Origin: a virus
Taxonomy: Duplodnaviria > Caudoviricetes
Length of the DNA: 64,000 nucleotides
IMG/VR virus record: IMGVR_UViG_3300015214_000004
Coordinates: 1 to 64,000 of that record
Reading direction: 5' to 3' (one strand)
The notes beneath the pieces are model-generated. The model did not search any database. It was not told the DNA's origin and saw nothing but the letters and a program-made list of their open reading frames with translations. The translations under genes and the position numbers were made by a program. Shown here piece after piece: positions 12,524 to 26,755 of this stretch. The stretch's first letter is position 1, and each line of letters begins with the position of its first letter.

Positions 12524-12560
12524 AAAAACACCCTATACAATATGTATTTGGGTGTTTTTT
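12524..12560 (+). terminator. Intrinsic terminator
   Basis: AAAAACACCC..GGGTGTTTTT hairpin after the recT-like gene. Confidence 0.7.
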
Positions 12561-12590: not shown

Positions 12591-12623
12591 TTTGGAGATA
12601 ATAATAAATAATACTTATCTTTG
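12591..12623 (+). promoter_or_regulatory. Bacteroidota primary-sigma promoter for the RNA array
   Basis: TTTG (12591-12594), a 21-nt spacer, then TATCTTTG (12616-12623). Confidence 0.7.
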
Positions 12624-12655
12624 TCAAGAAGTTCTTTGATAAAATTCTTAAAACA

Positions 12656-13122
12656 AGAATCCGAACAGCAAAATATAAAAAACATAATTAAGGTTTATGC
12701 GAAAAAACCGGATTCTGTAAAAGGTATGAAACAGCAATATAAACGACCTGTCACGTCCGAGGCACTGGTTCGAATCCGGTACTGCTAAATGCGGTTGGTG
12801 TAGTGGTTAGCATGCGTAAAATACAATCCTGTAAAAGAACCGCAACAGCAAATAATCATTGTGTCATTGGTTCGATTCCAATTTCTTACTTTGTCGGAAT
12901 ACCTCAGGTGGTAGAGGAAATGAATAAAAATGCGGTTCTGTATAAGATCAGTTCAGCAAATTAAAAAAGATTCCGCGATTTGGAATTATAGTTTAATAGG
13001 TAGAATGCTAAATTAATAATTTAGAGGTTTCGGTTCGAATCCGTCTTAAAAGCTGATCTGTTTAAAGGGGGCGCACAGCAATTAAAAACAACAACCTGTT
13101 AAATTGTGAACATGTCCCCTGT
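12656..13122 (+). ncRNA. Tandem array of five Y-RNA-like (YrlA-like) units
   Basis: Units 12656-12718, 12722-12832, 12836-12941, 12945-13061 and 13066-13122. Each reads stem-(A/T)CAGCAA-insert-complementary stem-GT. Units 2-4 contain GGTTCGA(A/T)TCC T-arms and D-arms. Confidence 0.75.
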
Positions 13123-13152
13123 TTTATTGCTTTAATTTTAAAATTATATATT

Positions 13153-14823
13153 ATGTTCACAAACAAACAAAAATCATTATTCGAAGTACCTGTAAAACCA
13201 GGACAGTCAAAATCAAGCAATGCATTTGTCAATGCAGGTTTAAAAAAATCAGCCAAAACTTTATCTGGTAATATGGCTTTGAAGTATTCAACGACAGGCA
13301 ACCACTTTGTTGATCAATTTGGAAAATTAGGGGCATACAAATCCCCCCGGTCATTTAATGAAATATCTTCTGATACTCAGTTGCTATGGTCTTCAAACCC
13401 ATTTATTACTGTTTGTTTTATATTTTTTATCCGTATTGTAACAAGGATTGTTACATTATTTACCGGAGAAAAAACATCAACAGTACAAAGGGGCGCAGGG
13501 CTGAAACATGAAGGCATTATGAGGATGATATGGTTACACATCAATCATTCTGAAACATTTTGGAAAAATATTAAGTTGTATATTTCTATATCTTCATGGA
13601 AAGATATATTCAAAATGTTACAATATGACCTTGAATATAATGGATGGGATGGGCGCGTTTTGAATTGGAATGAGTTTGGTAACCTTATATTGGCAGGGCT
13701 TGAAAATCCTAATACGGTGAATTTGGTCAAAAAATATTTGCCTCAAATACAGGCCAGGAGCAAATGTACTACATTGAATTCGCAGTCAGATACCATGATA
13801 GGCAAGTGGATATGTTCGTTATTGAGTATTAATTATAAAGAATACCGTAAATTAAAAACATCTGGCAAGGCGCATGAATGGCAAAAGTTAATTTCTAATA
13901 AATTGTTTGATAAAATAGATTTCAATTCAATACACGGCAGGGCATTAGCCCTTATTGTTTCATCAAAGTTCATATCAAACCATAAATTAGAAGATAAGTA
14001 TGAATCATGGATAAAATCGCAGCCCGTTGCTAAGTTTACCGGATATGTACATGAATTGATGGCGAAAGTAACCCATAATATGAAAACGTATATGTCAGAA
14101 ACAATCAATAAGCAATTTTATGGGTTAGTTGAAACAGGAAAGAAAAATGCCAAAACAGAATCAGGCATTATTATTGTTCGGGACACATCAGGCTCTATGA
14201 CATCAACAGCAACAGGGACAAATGTTTCATGCTATAACATAGCTAAAGCGCTTGCATTATATTTTAGTGAATTTTTAACAGGTTATTTTGCGGATAGTTG
14301 GATAGAATTTAATACAAGTGCAAAAATGCATAAATGGGTTGGTAAATCTCCTGTCGAAAAATGGTTAAATGACAGGTCAGGCGTAATAGGGTCTACAAAT
14401 TTTCAATCTGTTATACTCCTATTTGTCAATATAAAAAGACAGGGCGTTAATGAAAGTGAATTTCCTTCCGGGATAGTGTGCATTTCAGATGGTGAATTTA
14501 ACCCATCCCAATTAGGTATAACAAATGTCCAGCAAGCATTGATTACATTAAAAGATGGGGGGTTTTCCGATGAATATATTAAAAATTTTAAGATAATACT
14601 CTGGAACCTACAATCAAATTATTATGGGCGTGGAACAGGTGAGAAATTTGAAACATATAGCAATGTTGATAATGTGTATTATTTCTCCGGTTACGATGGT
14701 TCTATAATATCGTTTTTAACAGGTGTTGATGGTAAAAGTGATAATATTAAGGAGCCTAAAAACGCAGAGGAACTATTTAATTTGGCTATGAATCAAGAAA
14801 TAATGAATAGGATTCAAATTTAA
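13153..14823 (+). CDS. Ro60/TROVE-like RNA-binding protein with vWA domain (DUF2828-type)
   Basis: LKYSTTGNHFVDQF N-terminus, helical repeat region, MIDAS RDTSGSM and ISDGEF, and a tRNA-like array immediately upstream. Confidence 0.75.
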   Translation: MFTNKQKSLFEVPVKPGQSKSSNAFVNAGLKKSAKTLSGNMALKYSTTGNHFVDQFGKLGAYKSPRSFNEISSDTQLLWSSNPFITVCFIFFIRIVTRIVTLFTGEKTSTVQRGAGLKHEGIMRMIWLHINHSETFWKNIKLYISISSWKDIFKMLQYDLEYNGWDGRVLNWNEFGNLILAGLENPNTVNLVKKYLPQIQARSKCTTLNSQSDTMIGKWICSLLSINYKEYRKLKTSGKAHEWQKLISNKLFDKIDFNSIHGRALALIVSSKFISNHKLEDKYESWIKSQPVAKFTGYVHELMAKVTHNMKTYMSETINKQFYGLVETGKKNAKTESGIIIVRDTSGSMTSTATGTNVSCYNIAKALALYFSEFLTGYFADSWIEFNTSAKMHKWVGKSPVEKWLNDRSGVIGSTNFQSVILLFVNIKRQGVNESEFPSGIVCISDGEFNPSQLGITNVQQALITLKDGGFSDEYIKNFKIILWNLQSNYYGRGTGEKFETYSNVDNVYYFSGYDGSIISFLTGVDGKSDNIKEPKNAEELFNLAMNQEIMNRIQI

Positions 14824-14826
14824 CTT

Positions 14827-14851
14827 AAAAGGGGATATGTCCCCTTTTTTT
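14827..14851 (+). terminator. Intrinsic terminator
   Basis: AAAAGGGGA-TATG-TCCCCTTTTTT. Confidence 0.8.
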
Positions 14852-14863
14852 AATTGTATAATT

Positions 14864-15010
14864 ATGGCAAAGAAAAACACAAGCATATCAATAGAAGAAG
14901 AAGTGCTGACACAAGCAGAAGAACAATGCAAAAAAGAGAAAAGGAGTTTTAGCAGCATGGTAGAACTTTTAGTGGAAAAATATCTTAACTACATAAATAA
15001 CAAAAAATAA
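14864..15010 (+). CDS. Small ribbon-helix-helix regulator (48 aa, not in the ORF track)
   Basis: MAKKNTSISIEEEVLTQAEEQCKKEKRSFSSMVELLVEKYL. Confidence 0.65.
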   Translation: MAKKNTSISIEEEVLTQAEEQCKKEKRSFSSMVELLVEKYLNYINNKK

Positions 15011-15200: not shown

Positions 15201-15890
15201 GAAATAACGGTGGGTATATGGTGCGTGGCGTTCAATTACGCACTGAATTAGATACGAAGAACTGAACTAGTAATTTATTTTTTTGCGATGGCAAAATTAA
15301 ATGGAATTGGATCTCACCAATCGGCTAATATGAAAAACGACGAATGGTTAACTCCTCCCGAATTAATTAAAAAATTAGGGCCTTTCGACTTGGATCCTTG
15401 CGCTCCAATTAATAGACCATGGGAAATGGCTAAAAAACATTTCACTATAAATGATAATGGTTTATTGCAACCTTGGAATGGTTTTGTTTGGTGTAATCCT
15501 CCATACGGATTAGAGGCGGCAAAATGGTTAGAAAAATTAGCCAATTATGGAAATGGAATTGCTTTGATATTTGCCAGGACTGAAACAGATATGTTTTTTA
15601 GGTGGGTTTGGAATAAGGCATCTTCATTACTATTTATTGAAGGTAGATTGTATTTTCATTACGTTGATGGATCCAAAGCAAAAGCAAATAGTGGGGCACC
15701 TTCTGTTTTGGTAGCTTATGGATCCGAAGCTACGGATAGGCTTAAAAACTCAGGAATTAACGGAATGCACATTTATCTTAACAGTTTTGAAAAAACTGAA
15801 GCGCGTGGGCAAAAAATAAATTACGGTCAATCTGTGATAAACTTTGAAACGGAGCACGGATAGCCATGCACTATATACCGTGTTATGTTG
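15201..15890. other. attC-like site F with a methyltransferase gene in its loop
   Basis: GAAATAAC-GGTG-GGTATATGGTGCGTGGC pairs with GCCATGCACTATATACC-GT-GTTATG. The loop start shares AATTACG.ACT..TT.GATACGAAGAAC with site E. Confidence 0.75.
15288..15863 (+). CDS. Phage DNA N6-adenine methyltransferase (Dam-like family)
   Basis: DEWLTP, FDLDPCA, WCNPPYG, LIFARTET and SGAPS motifs. Confidence 0.9.
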   Translation: MAKLNGIGSHQSANMKNDEWLTPPELIKKLGPFDLDPCAPINRPWEMAKKHFTINDNGLLQPWNGFVWCNPPYGLEAAKWLEKLANYGNGIALIFARTETDMFFRWVWNKASSLLFIEGRLYFHYVDGSKAKANSGAPSVLVAYGSEATDRLKNSGINGMHIYLNSFEKTEARGQKINYGQSVINFETEHG

Positions 15891-26420: not shown

Positions 26421-26459
26421 GCAAAAAATTGATTATATTTGAATTATAATGTTCGTTGA

Positions 26460-26755
26460 TATTAAATAGAAAGTATGTTTGGACGAGGGTTCGATTCCCT
26501 CCGGCTCCACCATGCCATTTAAGATGATGCTGGGTAGCGCCCAGATGATTTTAGGAGATTTCGGGGAAGCCTAAAAGAGAACAACAAAAATAGACGAGGG
26601 GGCAAAAAAATGCGTTTTACCTCATCTGCCCGTCCAGGGGCCGACATGGTTTTGACAGCGTATAAGTATGTTTGAAGTAGAACATTATAGCCTATAAACG
26701 GCAAAACAATTGAAATGTTTAACCAACAGCTTAGAGCAGTGGGTTAACAAGTCCT
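26460..26755 (+). ncRNA. ssrA: Circularly permuted (two-piece) tmRNA
   Basis: The acceptor piece (GGAC-GAGGGTTCGATTCCCTC-CGGCTCC-A-CCA, ending 26512) comes before GGGGCCG..TTTTGAC (from 26637). G3.U70 pair present. Tag frame 26700-26747 encodes GKTIEMFNQQLRAVG. Confidence 0.85.

What the first reader, a model, noticed from the sequence alone, without database searches (positions are those of the whole stretch)
12656..14823. Ro60/TROVE-like protein with a five-unit Y-like RNA array carrying a novel repeated motif
Seen: after a clean TTTG-21-TATCTTTG promoter come five tandem units. Each is closed by its own stem (AGAATCCG/CGGATTCT, AGGTAT/ATAC..CCT, AGAACCGCA/TGCGGTTCT, AGATCAGTT/AGCTGATCT, AGGGGGCGC/ATGTCCCCT) with (A/T)CAGCAA after the 5' strand and GT after the 3' strand. 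The stems differ in sequence but keep pairing. Units 2 and 3 hold T-arm, closed acceptor hairpin, then D-arm; units 1 and 5 have no insert. The terminal CTGT is complementary to ACAG, allowing a pseudoknot or pairing between adjacent units. Established: bacterial Ro60 binds Y RNAs, and YrlA RNAs mimic tRNA in this T-acceptor-D order. Inference: a phage RNP with a modular Ro-binding scaffold unlike the canonical Y stem, perhaps acting as decoys for anticodon nucleases or tethering RNA repair/decay enzymes.
Basis: partly seen in the sequence, partly recalled or inferred. Interest (0 to 1): 0.84.

Follow-up and report, generated by a model that had tools for sequence, protein, structure and literature searches.

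The report
Phage Ro60-like protein with partner RNAs
This phage carries a compact operon of five small RNAs, three of them tRNA look-alikes, followed by a ring-shaped Ro60-like protein. The shared "handle" of these RNAs matches the unexplained Class I RNAs of social amoebae, which I show also encode this protein, so a likely protein partner for those RNAs can now be tested.

Summary
Five head-to-tail RNA units lie at 12655-13122, 2-3 nt apart. Each has the plan AAG, closing stem, (A/U)CAGCAA, variable body, stem, CUGU. They sit between a Bacteroidota-type promoter and a 556-aa gene that ends in a terminator.

The protein is DUF2828/DUF7788. It has no TROVE Pfam match, but its model superposes on Ro60 over its full length (Z 23.2).

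A covariance model built from phage units found 144 matches in 80 related phage loci, all on the gene's strand. It found nothing away from the gene in about 15 Mb of control sequence.

The units lack the YrlA motif GNCGAA. They share every sequence and structure hallmark of Dictyostelium Class I RNAs; the DUSE promoter and Rfam's score threshold are not met.

New here:
- All Dictyostelia groups encode a full-length homologue. In D. discoideum it is DDB_G0281913 (hhalign E 5e-31; Ro60-like fold, Z 21.7).
- The variable bodies of family members are strongly enriched in anticodon-arm mimics.

This scan noted the same protein-RNA family earlier on at least 19 other genomes. I found no publication describing it.

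The parts
12527..12560 (+). Terminator-like hairpin of the upstream RecT-like gene (AACACCC...GGGUGUU followed by a U run). It marks the 5' boundary of the module.
   Evidence: Read from the sequence. The scan tool missed it because the loop is 16 nt. The upstream gene is RecT-like by PHROGs.
12591..12623 (+). Bacteroidota-type promoter-like site, TTTG-N21-TATCTTTG.
   Evidence: Sequence checked. The match to the published -33/-7 consensus is from my own knowledge. Transcription was not tested.
12655..12718 (+). Unit 1. Handle (AAG, 8-bp stem, ACAGCAA at 12665-12671, CUGU) plus an inner 5-bp hairpin with the 7-nt anticodon-like loop UUAAGGU (12683-12699).
   Evidence: R1 56 bits, though it was in the training set. 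Rfam Dicty_Class_I_RNA 24.4 bits. Fold z -2.5. Loop type.
12721..12832 (+). Unit 2. Handle with a weak closing stem, carrying a circularly permuted tRNA-Asp mimic: anticodon arm (loop CUGUCAC, 12748-12754), T-arm, closed acceptor hairpin, D-arm.
   Evidence: When the two halves are re-ordered in silico, ARAGORN at a relaxed threshold calls tRNA-Asp(GUC). Rfam tRNA 19.2 bits. Not detected by R1.
12835..12941 (+). Unit 3. Handle with a 9-bp stem, a second stem UCAUU/AAUGA, then T-arm, closed acceptor hairpin and D-arm (YrlA-like, with no anticodon loop).
   Evidence: Rfam YrlA 32.7 bits over model positions 1-114, below the gathering score of 69. R1 20.8-31.8 bits; not in the training set. Its T-arm aligns with one in the L092, L002, L015, L007 and L020 arrays.
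12944..13061 (+). Unit 4. Handle (UCAGCAA variant) carrying an extra hairpin followed by D-arm, anticodon arm (loop UUAAUAA, 13013-13019) and T-arm in normal tRNA order.
   Evidence: Rfam tRNA 39.8 bits, above the gathering score of 29, over model positions 5-66. R1 42.7 bits; not in the training set. ARAGORN at a relaxed threshold calls tRNA-Ile(AAU)-like.
13065..13122 (+). Unit 5. Short unit with a G+C-rich 8-bp stem followed by a U-rich tail. It contains the heptamer CUGUUAA (13096-13102). It may also act as a leaky terminator between the RNA array and the mRNA (inference).
   Evidence: R1 45.6 bits, though in the training set. Fold -18.3 kcal/mol, z -2.6. A last unit with a G+C-rich AAGGG... 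stem and C-rich ...CCCUGUU end precedes the gene in L002, L007 and L015 too.
13153..14823 (+). Gene for a 556-aa Ro60-like protein: a helical-repeat ring domain (DUF2828-type) followed by a vWA domain (DUF7788) with an intact MIDAS motif (D344, S346, S348, T415, D446).
   Evidence: Pfam. PHROG 850 'RNA-binding protein', E 3e-33. Invariant columns. Model and fold matches.
14827..14856 (+). Intrinsic-terminator-like hairpin with a U run that closes the operon.

Best explanation
This is a self-contained phage operon for a Ro60/Y-RNA-like ribonucleoprotein of a distinct lineage.

The protein belongs to the DUF2828/DUF7788 family. It is predicted to form a Ro60-type helical ring with a vWA/MIDAS domain.

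The five RNAs share a 'handle': a terminal helix whose outer pairs are A-U and G-C, a single-stranded ACAGCAA a fixed 9-10 nt from the 5' end, and a 3' overhang G(U). I infer that this handle is what the protein binds.

Each RNA also displays a different cargo on the handle:
- unit 1, an anticodon-arm-like hairpin;
- unit 2, a permuted tRNA-Asp mimic;
- unit 3, a YrlA-like T/acceptor/D body;
- unit 4, a tRNA-like body in normal order;
- unit 5, a short hairpin.

By analogy with Ro60-Y RNA particles, the RNAs would act as adaptors or decoys. They would bring the ring together with host enzymes that recognise tRNA, such as anticodon nucleases, modification or processing enzymes and exonucleases, or sequester those enzymes during infection.

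Shown here: the anatomy, the predicted fold, the genomic linkage and the cargo types. Inferred: direct binding, processing into unit-length RNAs, and the decoy or adaptor role.
For: Fold.
- Z 23.2 to Ro60 over the full length, with all top ten hits Ro60-type.
- The MIDAS residues are invariant.

Linkage.
- Model R1 finds 144 units at E <= 0.1 in 80 phage loci, all on the gene's strand. Sixty of the 80 loci have one within 3 kb.
- In five whole phage genomes (1.03 Mb) all 17 hits lie within about 13 kb of the gene.
- In five whole metagenome-assembled genomes (14.2 Mb) all 12 hits lie on the gene's contig.
- Of 17 genomes of one family, one has both gene and RNAs and 16 have neither.
- All five cultured phages examined carry the gene together with R1 matches (hosts Leptolyngbya, Campylobacter, Bacillus, Escherichia, Cronobacter); the E. 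coli phage SUSP2 matches are weak, 22 bits at best. In GAP32 the units lie 200 kb from the gene.

Structure.
- The closing stem covaries: 92 cells change on both sides against 30 in shuffles.
- The G-C closing pair becomes U-A in phage CPX and A-U in phage Tsamsa.

Cargo.
- Of 98 predicted hairpins in the variable regions of 121 short units, 38 have 7-nt loops, against 5.3 +/- 2.7 in shuffles.
- Of these, 28 carry U at loop position 2 and a purine at position 6, against 1.1 +/- 1.3 in shuffles.
- Stems are mostly 5 bp, and the loops follow the natural tRNA rule linking positions 36 and 37.

Operon. Promoter-like site, five RNAs, gene and terminator form one block.
Against: - No direct evidence of transcription, processing or binding.
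- The units used to build R1 were chosen for perfect stems, so the pairing statistics on that alignment are biased upward.
- Unit 2's closing stem is weak and R1 misses it.
- Sequence profiles do not connect the protein to Ro60. The relationship rests on a predicted fold.
- The phage has no RtcB, RNA ligase or true tRNA gene, so any partner enzymes would have to be host ones.
- The related units are not independent, which inflates the anticodon-loop counts. Only 23 distinct stem-loops remain after removing duplicates.
Confidence: 0.75

Rival explanations
1. The RNAs and the protein belong to the same phage 'tRNA island' but do not bind each other. The handle would instead be recognised by another factor, such as a host RNA chaperone, a processing nuclease or an RRM-type protein like Dictyostelium Rnp1A. 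The Ro60-like protein would act on other RNAs, such as damaged tRNAs.
For: In many relatives the units sit among tRNA genes rather than next to the gene, and in GAP32 they are 200 kb away. The only protein shown to bind a Class I RNA directly is the RRM protein Rnp1A/CIBP. The four proteins recovered in the published pull-down do not include the DUF2828 homologue.
Against: Strand and distance coupling are very tight across five bacterial phyla. The window has no tRNA island at all, yet keeps the RNAs and the gene in one operon. In 11 relatives a unit-like element encloses the gene's own start codon, which fits recognition by the gene's product.
Confidence: 0.13
2. The units are mainly cis-acting leader elements that control translation or termination of the Ro60-like gene, and are not free-standing small RNAs.
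For: In the window they lie in the 5' leader, with no clear terminator before the gene apart from unit 5's G+C-rich stem and U-rich tail. In 11 relatives a unit overlaps the start codon.
Against: Of the units in relatives, 118 of 144 lie downstream of the gene, often kilobases away and between tRNA genes. Dictyostelium Class I RNAs with the same plan are abundant stand-alone RNAs of about 60 nt.
Confidence: 0.07
3. The array is a canonical YrlA/YrlB-type Y RNA cluster next to a divergent but orthologous Ro60, so it is nothing new.
For: Unit 3 aligns end to end with Rfam YrlA. The order T-arm, acceptor hairpin, D-arm is the YrlA order. Phage Ro60 with Y-like RNAs is already known.
Against: The YrlA score is 32.7 against a gathering score of 69, and it comes from the tRNA-like part. 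The Rsr-recognition motif GNCGAAN0-1G is absent from all five units. The protein has no TROVE Pfam match at E <= 10 and belongs to a separate family with its own eukaryotic branch.
Confidence: 0.04
4. The units are decayed tRNA genes or chance repeats with no function.
For: Units 2-4 contain tRNA-like pieces, and the phage has no intact tRNA gene.
Against: The handle is conserved in hundreds of units with covarying stems, and only on the gene's strand. Units 1 and 5 have no T-arm, D-arm or acceptor stem; unit 1 carries only an anticodon-arm-like hairpin.
Confidence: 0.01

Closest known systems
Bacterial and phage Ro60 (Rsr/TROVE) with Y RNAs of the YrlA/YrlB type (Chen et al. 2014, PMC4201824; Rfam RF02553)
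   Same: A ring-plus-vWA protein is encoded beside several small RNAs on the same strand. At least one RNA carries a tRNA-like domain in the order T-arm, closed acceptor hairpin, D-arm. Each RNA is closed by a helix formed from its 5' and 3' ends.
   Different: The protein belongs to a different Pfam family (DUF2828/DUF7788, not TROVE). The proposed recognition element is ACAGCAA next to the helix, not GNCGAAN0-1G. Arrays hold up to at least eight matches in one locus. Cargo types include bare anticodon arms and tRNA bodies opened at different points. No unit reaches the YrlA gathering score.
Thermus phage phiLo Ro60 with Yrl1/Yrl2 (PMC12135203; PDB 9KOP, 9L5Y)
   Same: A phage-encoded Ro60-fold protein has its RNA partners encoded just upstream of the gene. 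The solved structure matches my model with Z 15-16. That protein is reported to recruit host PNPase.
   Different: phiLo Ro60 is a canonical TROVE protein, and its RNAs were identified by the CGAA motif. Here the handle and the protein family are different, and no host partner is known.
Dictyostelium Class I RNAs (Aspegren 2004; Avesson 2011; Kjellin et al. 2021, PMC7919456; Rfam RF01414)
   Same: The start is AAG and the end is CUGU. A short terminal stem is conserved in structure but not in sequence. The motif (CU)UACAGCAA follows the 5' strand. An A-rich variable body makes up the rest, for about 60 nt in total. Rfam's model hits phage units at 24-33 bits, and five Class I RNAs align with phage units. 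The organisms encode a full-length homologue of the phage protein.
   Different: Class I RNAs are single genes, each with its own DUSE promoter. Their stems are 5-6 bp rather than 8-9 bp. None is reported to carry a tRNA-like body. The phage units stay below Rfam's gathering score of 41.5. The published binding partner is an RRM protein, not the DUF2828 homologue.
Eukaryotic DUF2828/DUF7788 proteins (plants, amoebae, oomycetes, chytrids, diatoms, Naegleria). Some are auto-named 'TROVE domain-containing protein' in UniRef.
   Same: The two-domain architecture is the same, and homology covers the full length.
   Different: None has a described function or RNA partner. The window protein matches Pfam DUF2828 only weakly (18.8 bits).

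Membership tests
Ro60/TROVE proteins (Pfam PF05731 plus a vWA domain) | Sequence match to the TROVE domain model | tested here: not met
   No PF05731 match at E <= 10. An HMMER profile of the family finds no Ro60 among PDB sequences.
Ro60/TROVE proteins (Pfam PF05731 plus a vWA domain) | Helical-repeat ring followed by a vWA domain with a MIDAS motif (the fold) | tested here: met
   Z 23.2, rmsd 4.0 A, 410 residues aligned to 1yvp_A across both domains. DxSxS, T and D are invariant. The basis is a predicted model, not a solved structure.
Ro60/TROVE proteins (Pfam PF05731 plus a vWA domain) | Binds Y RNA and misfolded RNA | not testable with these tools
   Needs biochemistry.
DUF2828/DUF7788 family (PF11443 plus PF25043; PHROG 850) | Matches to both domain models in the correct order | tested here: met
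   PF25043 scores 31.2 bits, above the cut-off of 27.1. PF11443 scores 18.8 bits, below the cut-off of 29. PHROG 850 E 3e-33. hhalign to the eukaryotic branch gives probability 99.9 and E 4.6e-31 over 466 columns.
YrlA-type Y RNAs (Rfam RF02553; Chen et al. 2014) | Reaches the Rfam gathering score | tested here: not met
   Unit 3 scores 32.7 bits against 69. The other units have no hit.
YrlA-type Y RNAs (Rfam RF02553; Chen et al. 2014) | GNCGAAN0-1G motif near the 5' end | tested here: not met
   Absent from all five units.
YrlA-type Y RNAs (Rfam RF02553; Chen et al. 2014) | tRNA-like domain with T-arm, acceptor stem-loop and D-arm | tested here: met
   Present in units 2 and 3. Units 1 and 5 lack it.
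YrlA-type Y RNAs (Rfam RF02553; Chen et al. 2014) | Encoded beside a Ro60 orthologue on the same strand | tested here: inconclusive
   The units lie beside a protein with the Ro60 fold on the same strand, but that protein belongs to a different family.
Dictyostelium Class I RNAs (Rfam RF01414; Kjellin et al. 2021) | Short stem joining the 5' and 3' ends, conserved in structure but not in sequence | tested here: met
.
Dictyostelium Class I RNAs (Rfam RF01414; Kjellin et al. 2021) | Conserved 11-nt motif (CCUUACAGCAA) next to the 5' strand of the stem | tested here: met
   ACAGCAA is exact in 98 of 126 distinct phage units and CAGCAA in 119. The phage consensus is aCuuACAGCAAA. In the window, four units have ACAGCAA and one has UCAGCAA.
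Dictyostelium Class I RNAs (Rfam RF01414; Kjellin et al. 2021) | Conserved ends: AAG start and CUGU end | tested here: met
   All five window units have both. In the family, A 117, A 119 and G 119 of 126 at the 5' end. At the 3' end, C 117, U 119 and G 120, then U 67.
Dictyostelium Class I RNAs (Rfam RF01414; Kjellin et al. 2021) | Length of about 42-65 nt | tested here: met
   Units 1 and 5 are 64 and 58 nt, and the family median is 63 nt. Units 2-4 are 107-118 nt because of their tRNA-like inserts.
Dictyostelium Class I RNAs (Rfam RF01414; Kjellin et al. 2021) | Reaches the Rfam gathering score (41.5 bits) | tested here: not met
   Unit 1 scores 24.4 bits. Relatives score 27.8-32.7 bits.
Dictyostelium Class I RNAs (Rfam RF01414; Kjellin et al. 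2021) | Own DUSE promoter about 60 nt upstream | tested here: not met
   The units stand 2-3 nt apart behind a single promoter-like site, which leaves no room for separate promoters.
tRNA (Rfam RF00005) | Complete cloverleaf with a 7-bp acceptor stem and a free 3' end | tested here: not met
   Unit 4 matches model positions 5-66 only. ARAGORN at default settings finds no tRNA in the window.

The most novel reading that the evidence does not exclude
The ACAGCAA-handle RNAs and the DUF2828/DUF7788 protein form one ancient ribonucleoprotein, parallel to Ro60-Y RNA, that is shared by phages, bacteria and eukaryotes. On this reading the Dictyostelium Class I RNAs are the cognate RNAs of DDB_G0281913. 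They were discovered in 2004, are thought unique to social amoebae, and have no known mechanism. Their phage counterparts show what such RNAs do: they display anticodon arms and tRNA bodies to enzymes that act on tRNA.
Probability: 0.5. Interest if true: 0.92.

Novelty: new variant of a known kind. Interest (0 to 1): 0.85.

Why it matters
Ro60-Y RNA particles are the model for how a protein ring and a small RNA cooperate in RNA surveillance. This operon belongs to a second, much less studied lineage of such particles. That lineage is common in phages of at least five bacterial phyla and has a different RNA recognition element.

The handle carries interchangeable tRNA-like cargo. This points to a role in the contest over tRNAs between phages and bacterial defences.

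The same handle defines the Class I RNAs of Dictyostelium. I show that all dictyostelid groups encode the homologous protein, so an unexplained, abundant class of eukaryotic RNAs now has a concrete candidate partner. That candidate can be tested with one pull-down or one knockout. The protein family is also present in plants, oomycetes and chytrids, where no partner RNA is known.

Tried and rejected
- TROVE by sequence. There is no Pfam PF05731 match at E <= 10, no Ro60 match with an HMMER profile against PDB sequences, and no NCBIfam match. The link to Ro60 exists only at the level of the predicted fold.

- The pull-down protein. I suspected that DDB_G0281243, the protein of unknown function recovered with Class I RNA DdR-21, was the DUF2828 homologue. 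It is not. The D. discoideum homologue is DDB_G0281913. I could not read Avesson 2011, and the supplements do not mention that gene.

- ACAG:CUGU pseudoknot or pairing between units. The bases are nearly invariant, so they carry no information. The last U is variable (67 U, 24 A). In phage CPX the closing pair covaries to U-A, which keeps the helix and breaks the proposed pairing.

- Tethering of phage-encoded RNA repair enzymes. The complete genome has no RtcB and no Rnl-type ligase.

- A unit around the window gene's own start codon. It is not present here, although 11 relatives have one.

- Pfam DUF7788 as a genome probe. It missed a known positive, so I used the family alignment instead.

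- Close relatives for base-by-base comparison of the array. The metagenome scan gave nothing closer than 59% identity. The arrays of the nearest loci align only loosely.

No expression data could be examined.

- Literature. Searches for DUF2828, DUF7788, Ro60-like, TROVE-like and Ro60 with phage and Y RNA returned no description of this pairing.
Full report
**What is in the window**

Downstream of a RecT-like gene and its terminator-like hairpin (12527-12560) lies a Bacteroidota-type promoter-like site, TTTG-N21-TATCTTTG (12591-12623). Five head-to-tail units follow at 12655-12718, 12721-12832, 12835-12941, 12944-13061 and 13065-13122. They are separated by only AA, AA, AU and UUA.

Every unit has the same plan: AAG, a closing stem, (A/U)CAGCAA, a variable body, the other strand of the stem, then CUGU. 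The second A and the G of AAG pair with the U and C of CUGU. The closing stems differ in sequence. They have 8, 3+3, 9, 9 and 8 pairs, and unit 2 is clearly the weakest.

A 556-codon gene starts 30 nt after unit 5 (13153-14823). A terminator-like hairpin follows it directly (14827-14848). The record is a complete 74.8-kb phage genome with terminal repeats.

**The five bodies**

- Unit 1 holds a 5-bp hairpin with the 7-nt loop UUAAGGU.
- Unit 2 runs anticodon arm (loop CUGUCAC), T-arm, closed acceptor hairpin, D-arm. When I re-order its two halves in silico, ARAGORN at a relaxed threshold draws a tRNA-Asp(GUC) cloverleaf.
- Unit 3 matches Rfam YrlA end to end, but at 32.7 bits against a gathering score of 69.
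- Unit 4 holds a normal-order D, anticodon and T body that passes Rfam's tRNA threshold at 39.8 bits.
- Unit 5 is short, with a G+C-rich stem and a U-rich tail.

The genome has no true tRNA gene, no RtcB and no Rnl-type ligase.

**The protein**

Pfam gives DUF7788 at 31.2 bits and a sub-threshold DUF2828 match. There is no TROVE match even at E <= 10. PHROGs places the protein in family 850, 'RNA-binding protein'.

More than 2,300 homologues exist in the protein collection. The MIDAS residues of the vWA domain are invariant.

An AlphaFold2 model with pLDDT 87.6 finds Ro60-type structures as its top ten matches. Against Xenopus Ro60 1yvp_A it gives Z 23.2 and rmsd 4.0 A over 410 residues across both domains. 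Proteins with only a vWA domain follow at Z about 10. Sequence profiles alone do not reach Ro60. The protein therefore has the Ro60 architecture but belongs to a different sequence family.

**Are the RNAs linked to the gene elsewhere?**

I fetched 80 phage loci encoding relatives at 42-72% identity.

A simple pattern search for AG-stem-CAGCAA...stem-CUGU gave 72 hits, 70 of them on the gene's strand. From 33 short units I built covariance model R1.

Covariation in the closing stem is strong: 92 cells change on both sides against 30 in shuffles. These units were picked for perfect stems, so the pairing figures are biased upward.

R1 results were as follows.
- In the window it found units 1, 5, 4 and 3 and nothing else significant.
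- In the 80 loci it found 144 matches at E <= 0.1, all on the gene's strand. Sixty loci have at least one within 3 kb.
- In four loci with no match in the flank, the whole genome showed units 3-13 kb away on the same strand. Across 1.03 Mb of phage genome there was no match elsewhere.
- In five whole metagenome-assembled genomes (14.2 Mb), all 12 matches lay on the gene's contig.
- Of 17 genomes of one family, one had both gene and RNAs and 16 had neither.

All five cultured phages examined carry the gene together with R1 matches.
- Leptolyngbya phage Lbo-JY46 has five tandem units directly after the gene.
- Campylobacter phage CPX has two units between tRNA-Tyr and the gene.
- Bacillus phage Tsamsa has units between a 19-tRNA array and gp247.
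- E. coli phage SUSP2 has weaker matches, at most 22 bits, among its tRNA genes downstream of the gene.
- Cronobacter phage GAP32 has units 200 kb from the gene.

In CPX and Tsamsa the otherwise invariant G-C closing pair is replaced by U-A and A-U. That is independent covariation.

**What the handle resembles**

It is not the YrlA handle. The Rsr-recognition motif GNCGAAN0-1G (Chen et al. 2014) is absent from all five units.

The only other Rfam family that responds is Dicty_Class_I_RNA. It scores 24.4 bits on unit 1 and 27.8-32.7 bits on units in relatives, against a gathering score of 41.5.

Kjellin et al. 2021 define Class I RNAs by five features: an AAG start, a short terminal stem conserved only in structure, an 11-nt motif beside the 5' strand, a variable remainder, and a CUGU end. 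Their length is 42-65 nt. [quoted passage not shown]

The phage units share each of these features. Among 126 distinct units the median length is 63 nt. ACAGCAA is exact in 98, the consensus is aCuuACAGCAAA, and the ends are AAG and CUG(U). Five Class I RNAs taken from the paper's supplement align with phage units, with ACAGCAA and the terminal UG invariant.

**Does Dictyostelium have the protein?**

I searched with a 361-residue fragment of the Tsamsa protein and admitted only proteins longer than 632 residues. This excluded the phage homologues and exposed eukaryotic ones in plants, a diatom and the amoebozoan Cavostelium.

A second search with the Cavostelium protein listed homologues in all four dictyostelid groups: Cavenderia fasciculata, Heterostelium album, Acytostelium subglobosum, Tieghemostelium lacteum, Polysphondylium violaceum, D. 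firmibasis and D. dimigraforme. It also listed Physarum, Vannella, Naegleria, oomycetes and a chytrid.

The D. discoideum member is DDB_G0281913 (Q54T94, 509 aa). The evidence for homology is:
- It carries DUF2828 (200 bits) and DUF7788 (179 bits).
- It aligns with the window protein over about 490 residues.
- The two families match profile to profile with probability 99.9 and E 4.6e-31 over 466 columns.
- Its model also superposes on Ro60, with Z 21.7.

It is not among the four proteins reported from the Class I pull-down.

The protein's range is also wider than the reported range of Class I RNAs. Both facts count against a simple one-to-one pairing. Alternatively, partner RNAs elsewhere have been missed. 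One Arabidopsis candidate scores 40 bits in the authors' own table.

**What the cargo suggests**

I folded the variable regions of 121 short units. They give 38 hairpins with 7-nt loops, against 5.3 +/- 2.7 in shuffles. Of these, 28 have U at loop position 2 and a purine at position 6, the U33/R37 signature of anticodon loops, against 1.1 +/- 1.3 in shuffles.

The 23 distinct examples mostly have 5-bp stems. Their 'anticodons' include UUU and CUU (9 examples), UGU and CGU (6), UUG (3) and CAU (2). They follow the natural tRNA rule that U36 goes with A37 and G36 with G37.

Related units are not independent, so these counts are inflated. The pattern is still clear. Together with the tRNA bodies of units 2-4, it fits RNAs that present tRNA parts to tRNA-recognising enzymes.

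**Mechanism**

I consider a Ro60/Y-RNA-like particle most likely (confidence 0.75). In it the ring protein holds the handle and the cargo engages host tRNA-directed enzymes.

- Shown: the anatomy, the predicted fold, the linkage and the cargo types.
- Inferred: binding, processing at the 2-3-nt spacers, and the decoy or adaptor role.

**Limits**

All structures are predictions.

**Prior art**

Phage Ro60 with Y-like RNAs is known for canonical TROVE proteins. My searches found nothing on DUF2828/DUF7788 proteins with RNA partners, or on Class I-like RNAs outside Dictyostelia. This scan itself noted the same family on at least 19 other genomes. My reading of the Class I resemblance was reached independently.

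Noticed in passing
L001, L003, L005, L006, L014, L050 at 2997; L017 at 24; L027 at 2988; L093 at 3941; L094 and L099 at 3997: In 11 relatives a unit-like element begins about 4 nt before the Ro60-like gene's start codon. It reads AAG-AUG-UU(U/C)-(A)ACAGCAA ... ACAUCUG and scores 23-44 bits with R1. The AUG therefore lies in the 5' strand of the 'closing stem'. The segment it encodes is the disordered N-terminus of the protein. All these loci have their RNA arrays downstream. This suggests that the protein represses its own translation by binding a mimic of its RNA partner. The window's gene lacks the element.
   Followed up: partly
window 26451-26747 (+): A circularly permuted (two-piece) tmRNA. 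Rfam tmRNA_permuted scores 66.4 bits against a gathering score of 47, and ARAGORN also calls it, with tag peptide GKTIEMFNQQLRAVG.
   Followed up: partly
L088 (Tsamsa), L090 (CPX), L091 (SUSP2), L019, L034, L060, L065, L068: In many relatives the Ro60-like gene sits at the edge of a large tRNA gene array, often with a tmRNA nearby. The ACAGCAA units are interleaved with the tRNA genes in stretches that GenBank leaves unannotated.
   Followed up: partly
L007 1514-1599; L060 2553-2660; L019 1198-1235: Other structured RNAs lie within 3 kb of the module in relatives, all above their gathering scores: a hatchet ribozyme (68.6 bits), RAGATH-34 (77.9 bits) and an abiF RNA (50.1 bits).
   Followed up: no
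L089 (Cronobacter phage GAP32) 2333-5281: In GAP32 the DUF2828 gene directly follows an RNA ligase gene, while its four ACAGCAA units lie about 200 kb away (record positions 306996-311931).
   Followed up: partly
window 13096-13102 and 12748-12754: Unit 5 contains CUGUUAA and unit 2 contains CUGUCAC. From my own knowledge these are the anticodon-loop heptamers of tRNA-Asn(GUU) and tRNA-Asp(GUC), two of the four GUN tRNAs that receive queuosine. In unit 5 the heptamer is not the loop of the minimum-energy fold.
   Followed up: no
Kjellin et al. 2021, Supplemental Table S4: The authors' own outgroup screen lists one Arabidopsis candidate, ath_can_1, with a covariance-model score of 40. That is close to genuine Class I RNAs, which score 42-45. 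It has a 6-bp terminal stem, AUUACAGCAA and a CUG end. It was set aside for lack of the DUSE promoter. Plants encode DUF2828 proteins.
   Followed up: no
window 14837-15010 and 15288-15863: Directly downstream of the module lie a small Arc-like repressor gene (PHROGs) and a Dam-type N6-adenine methyltransferase gene (Pfam). Upstream lie HNH endonuclease and RecT-like genes.
   Followed up: no
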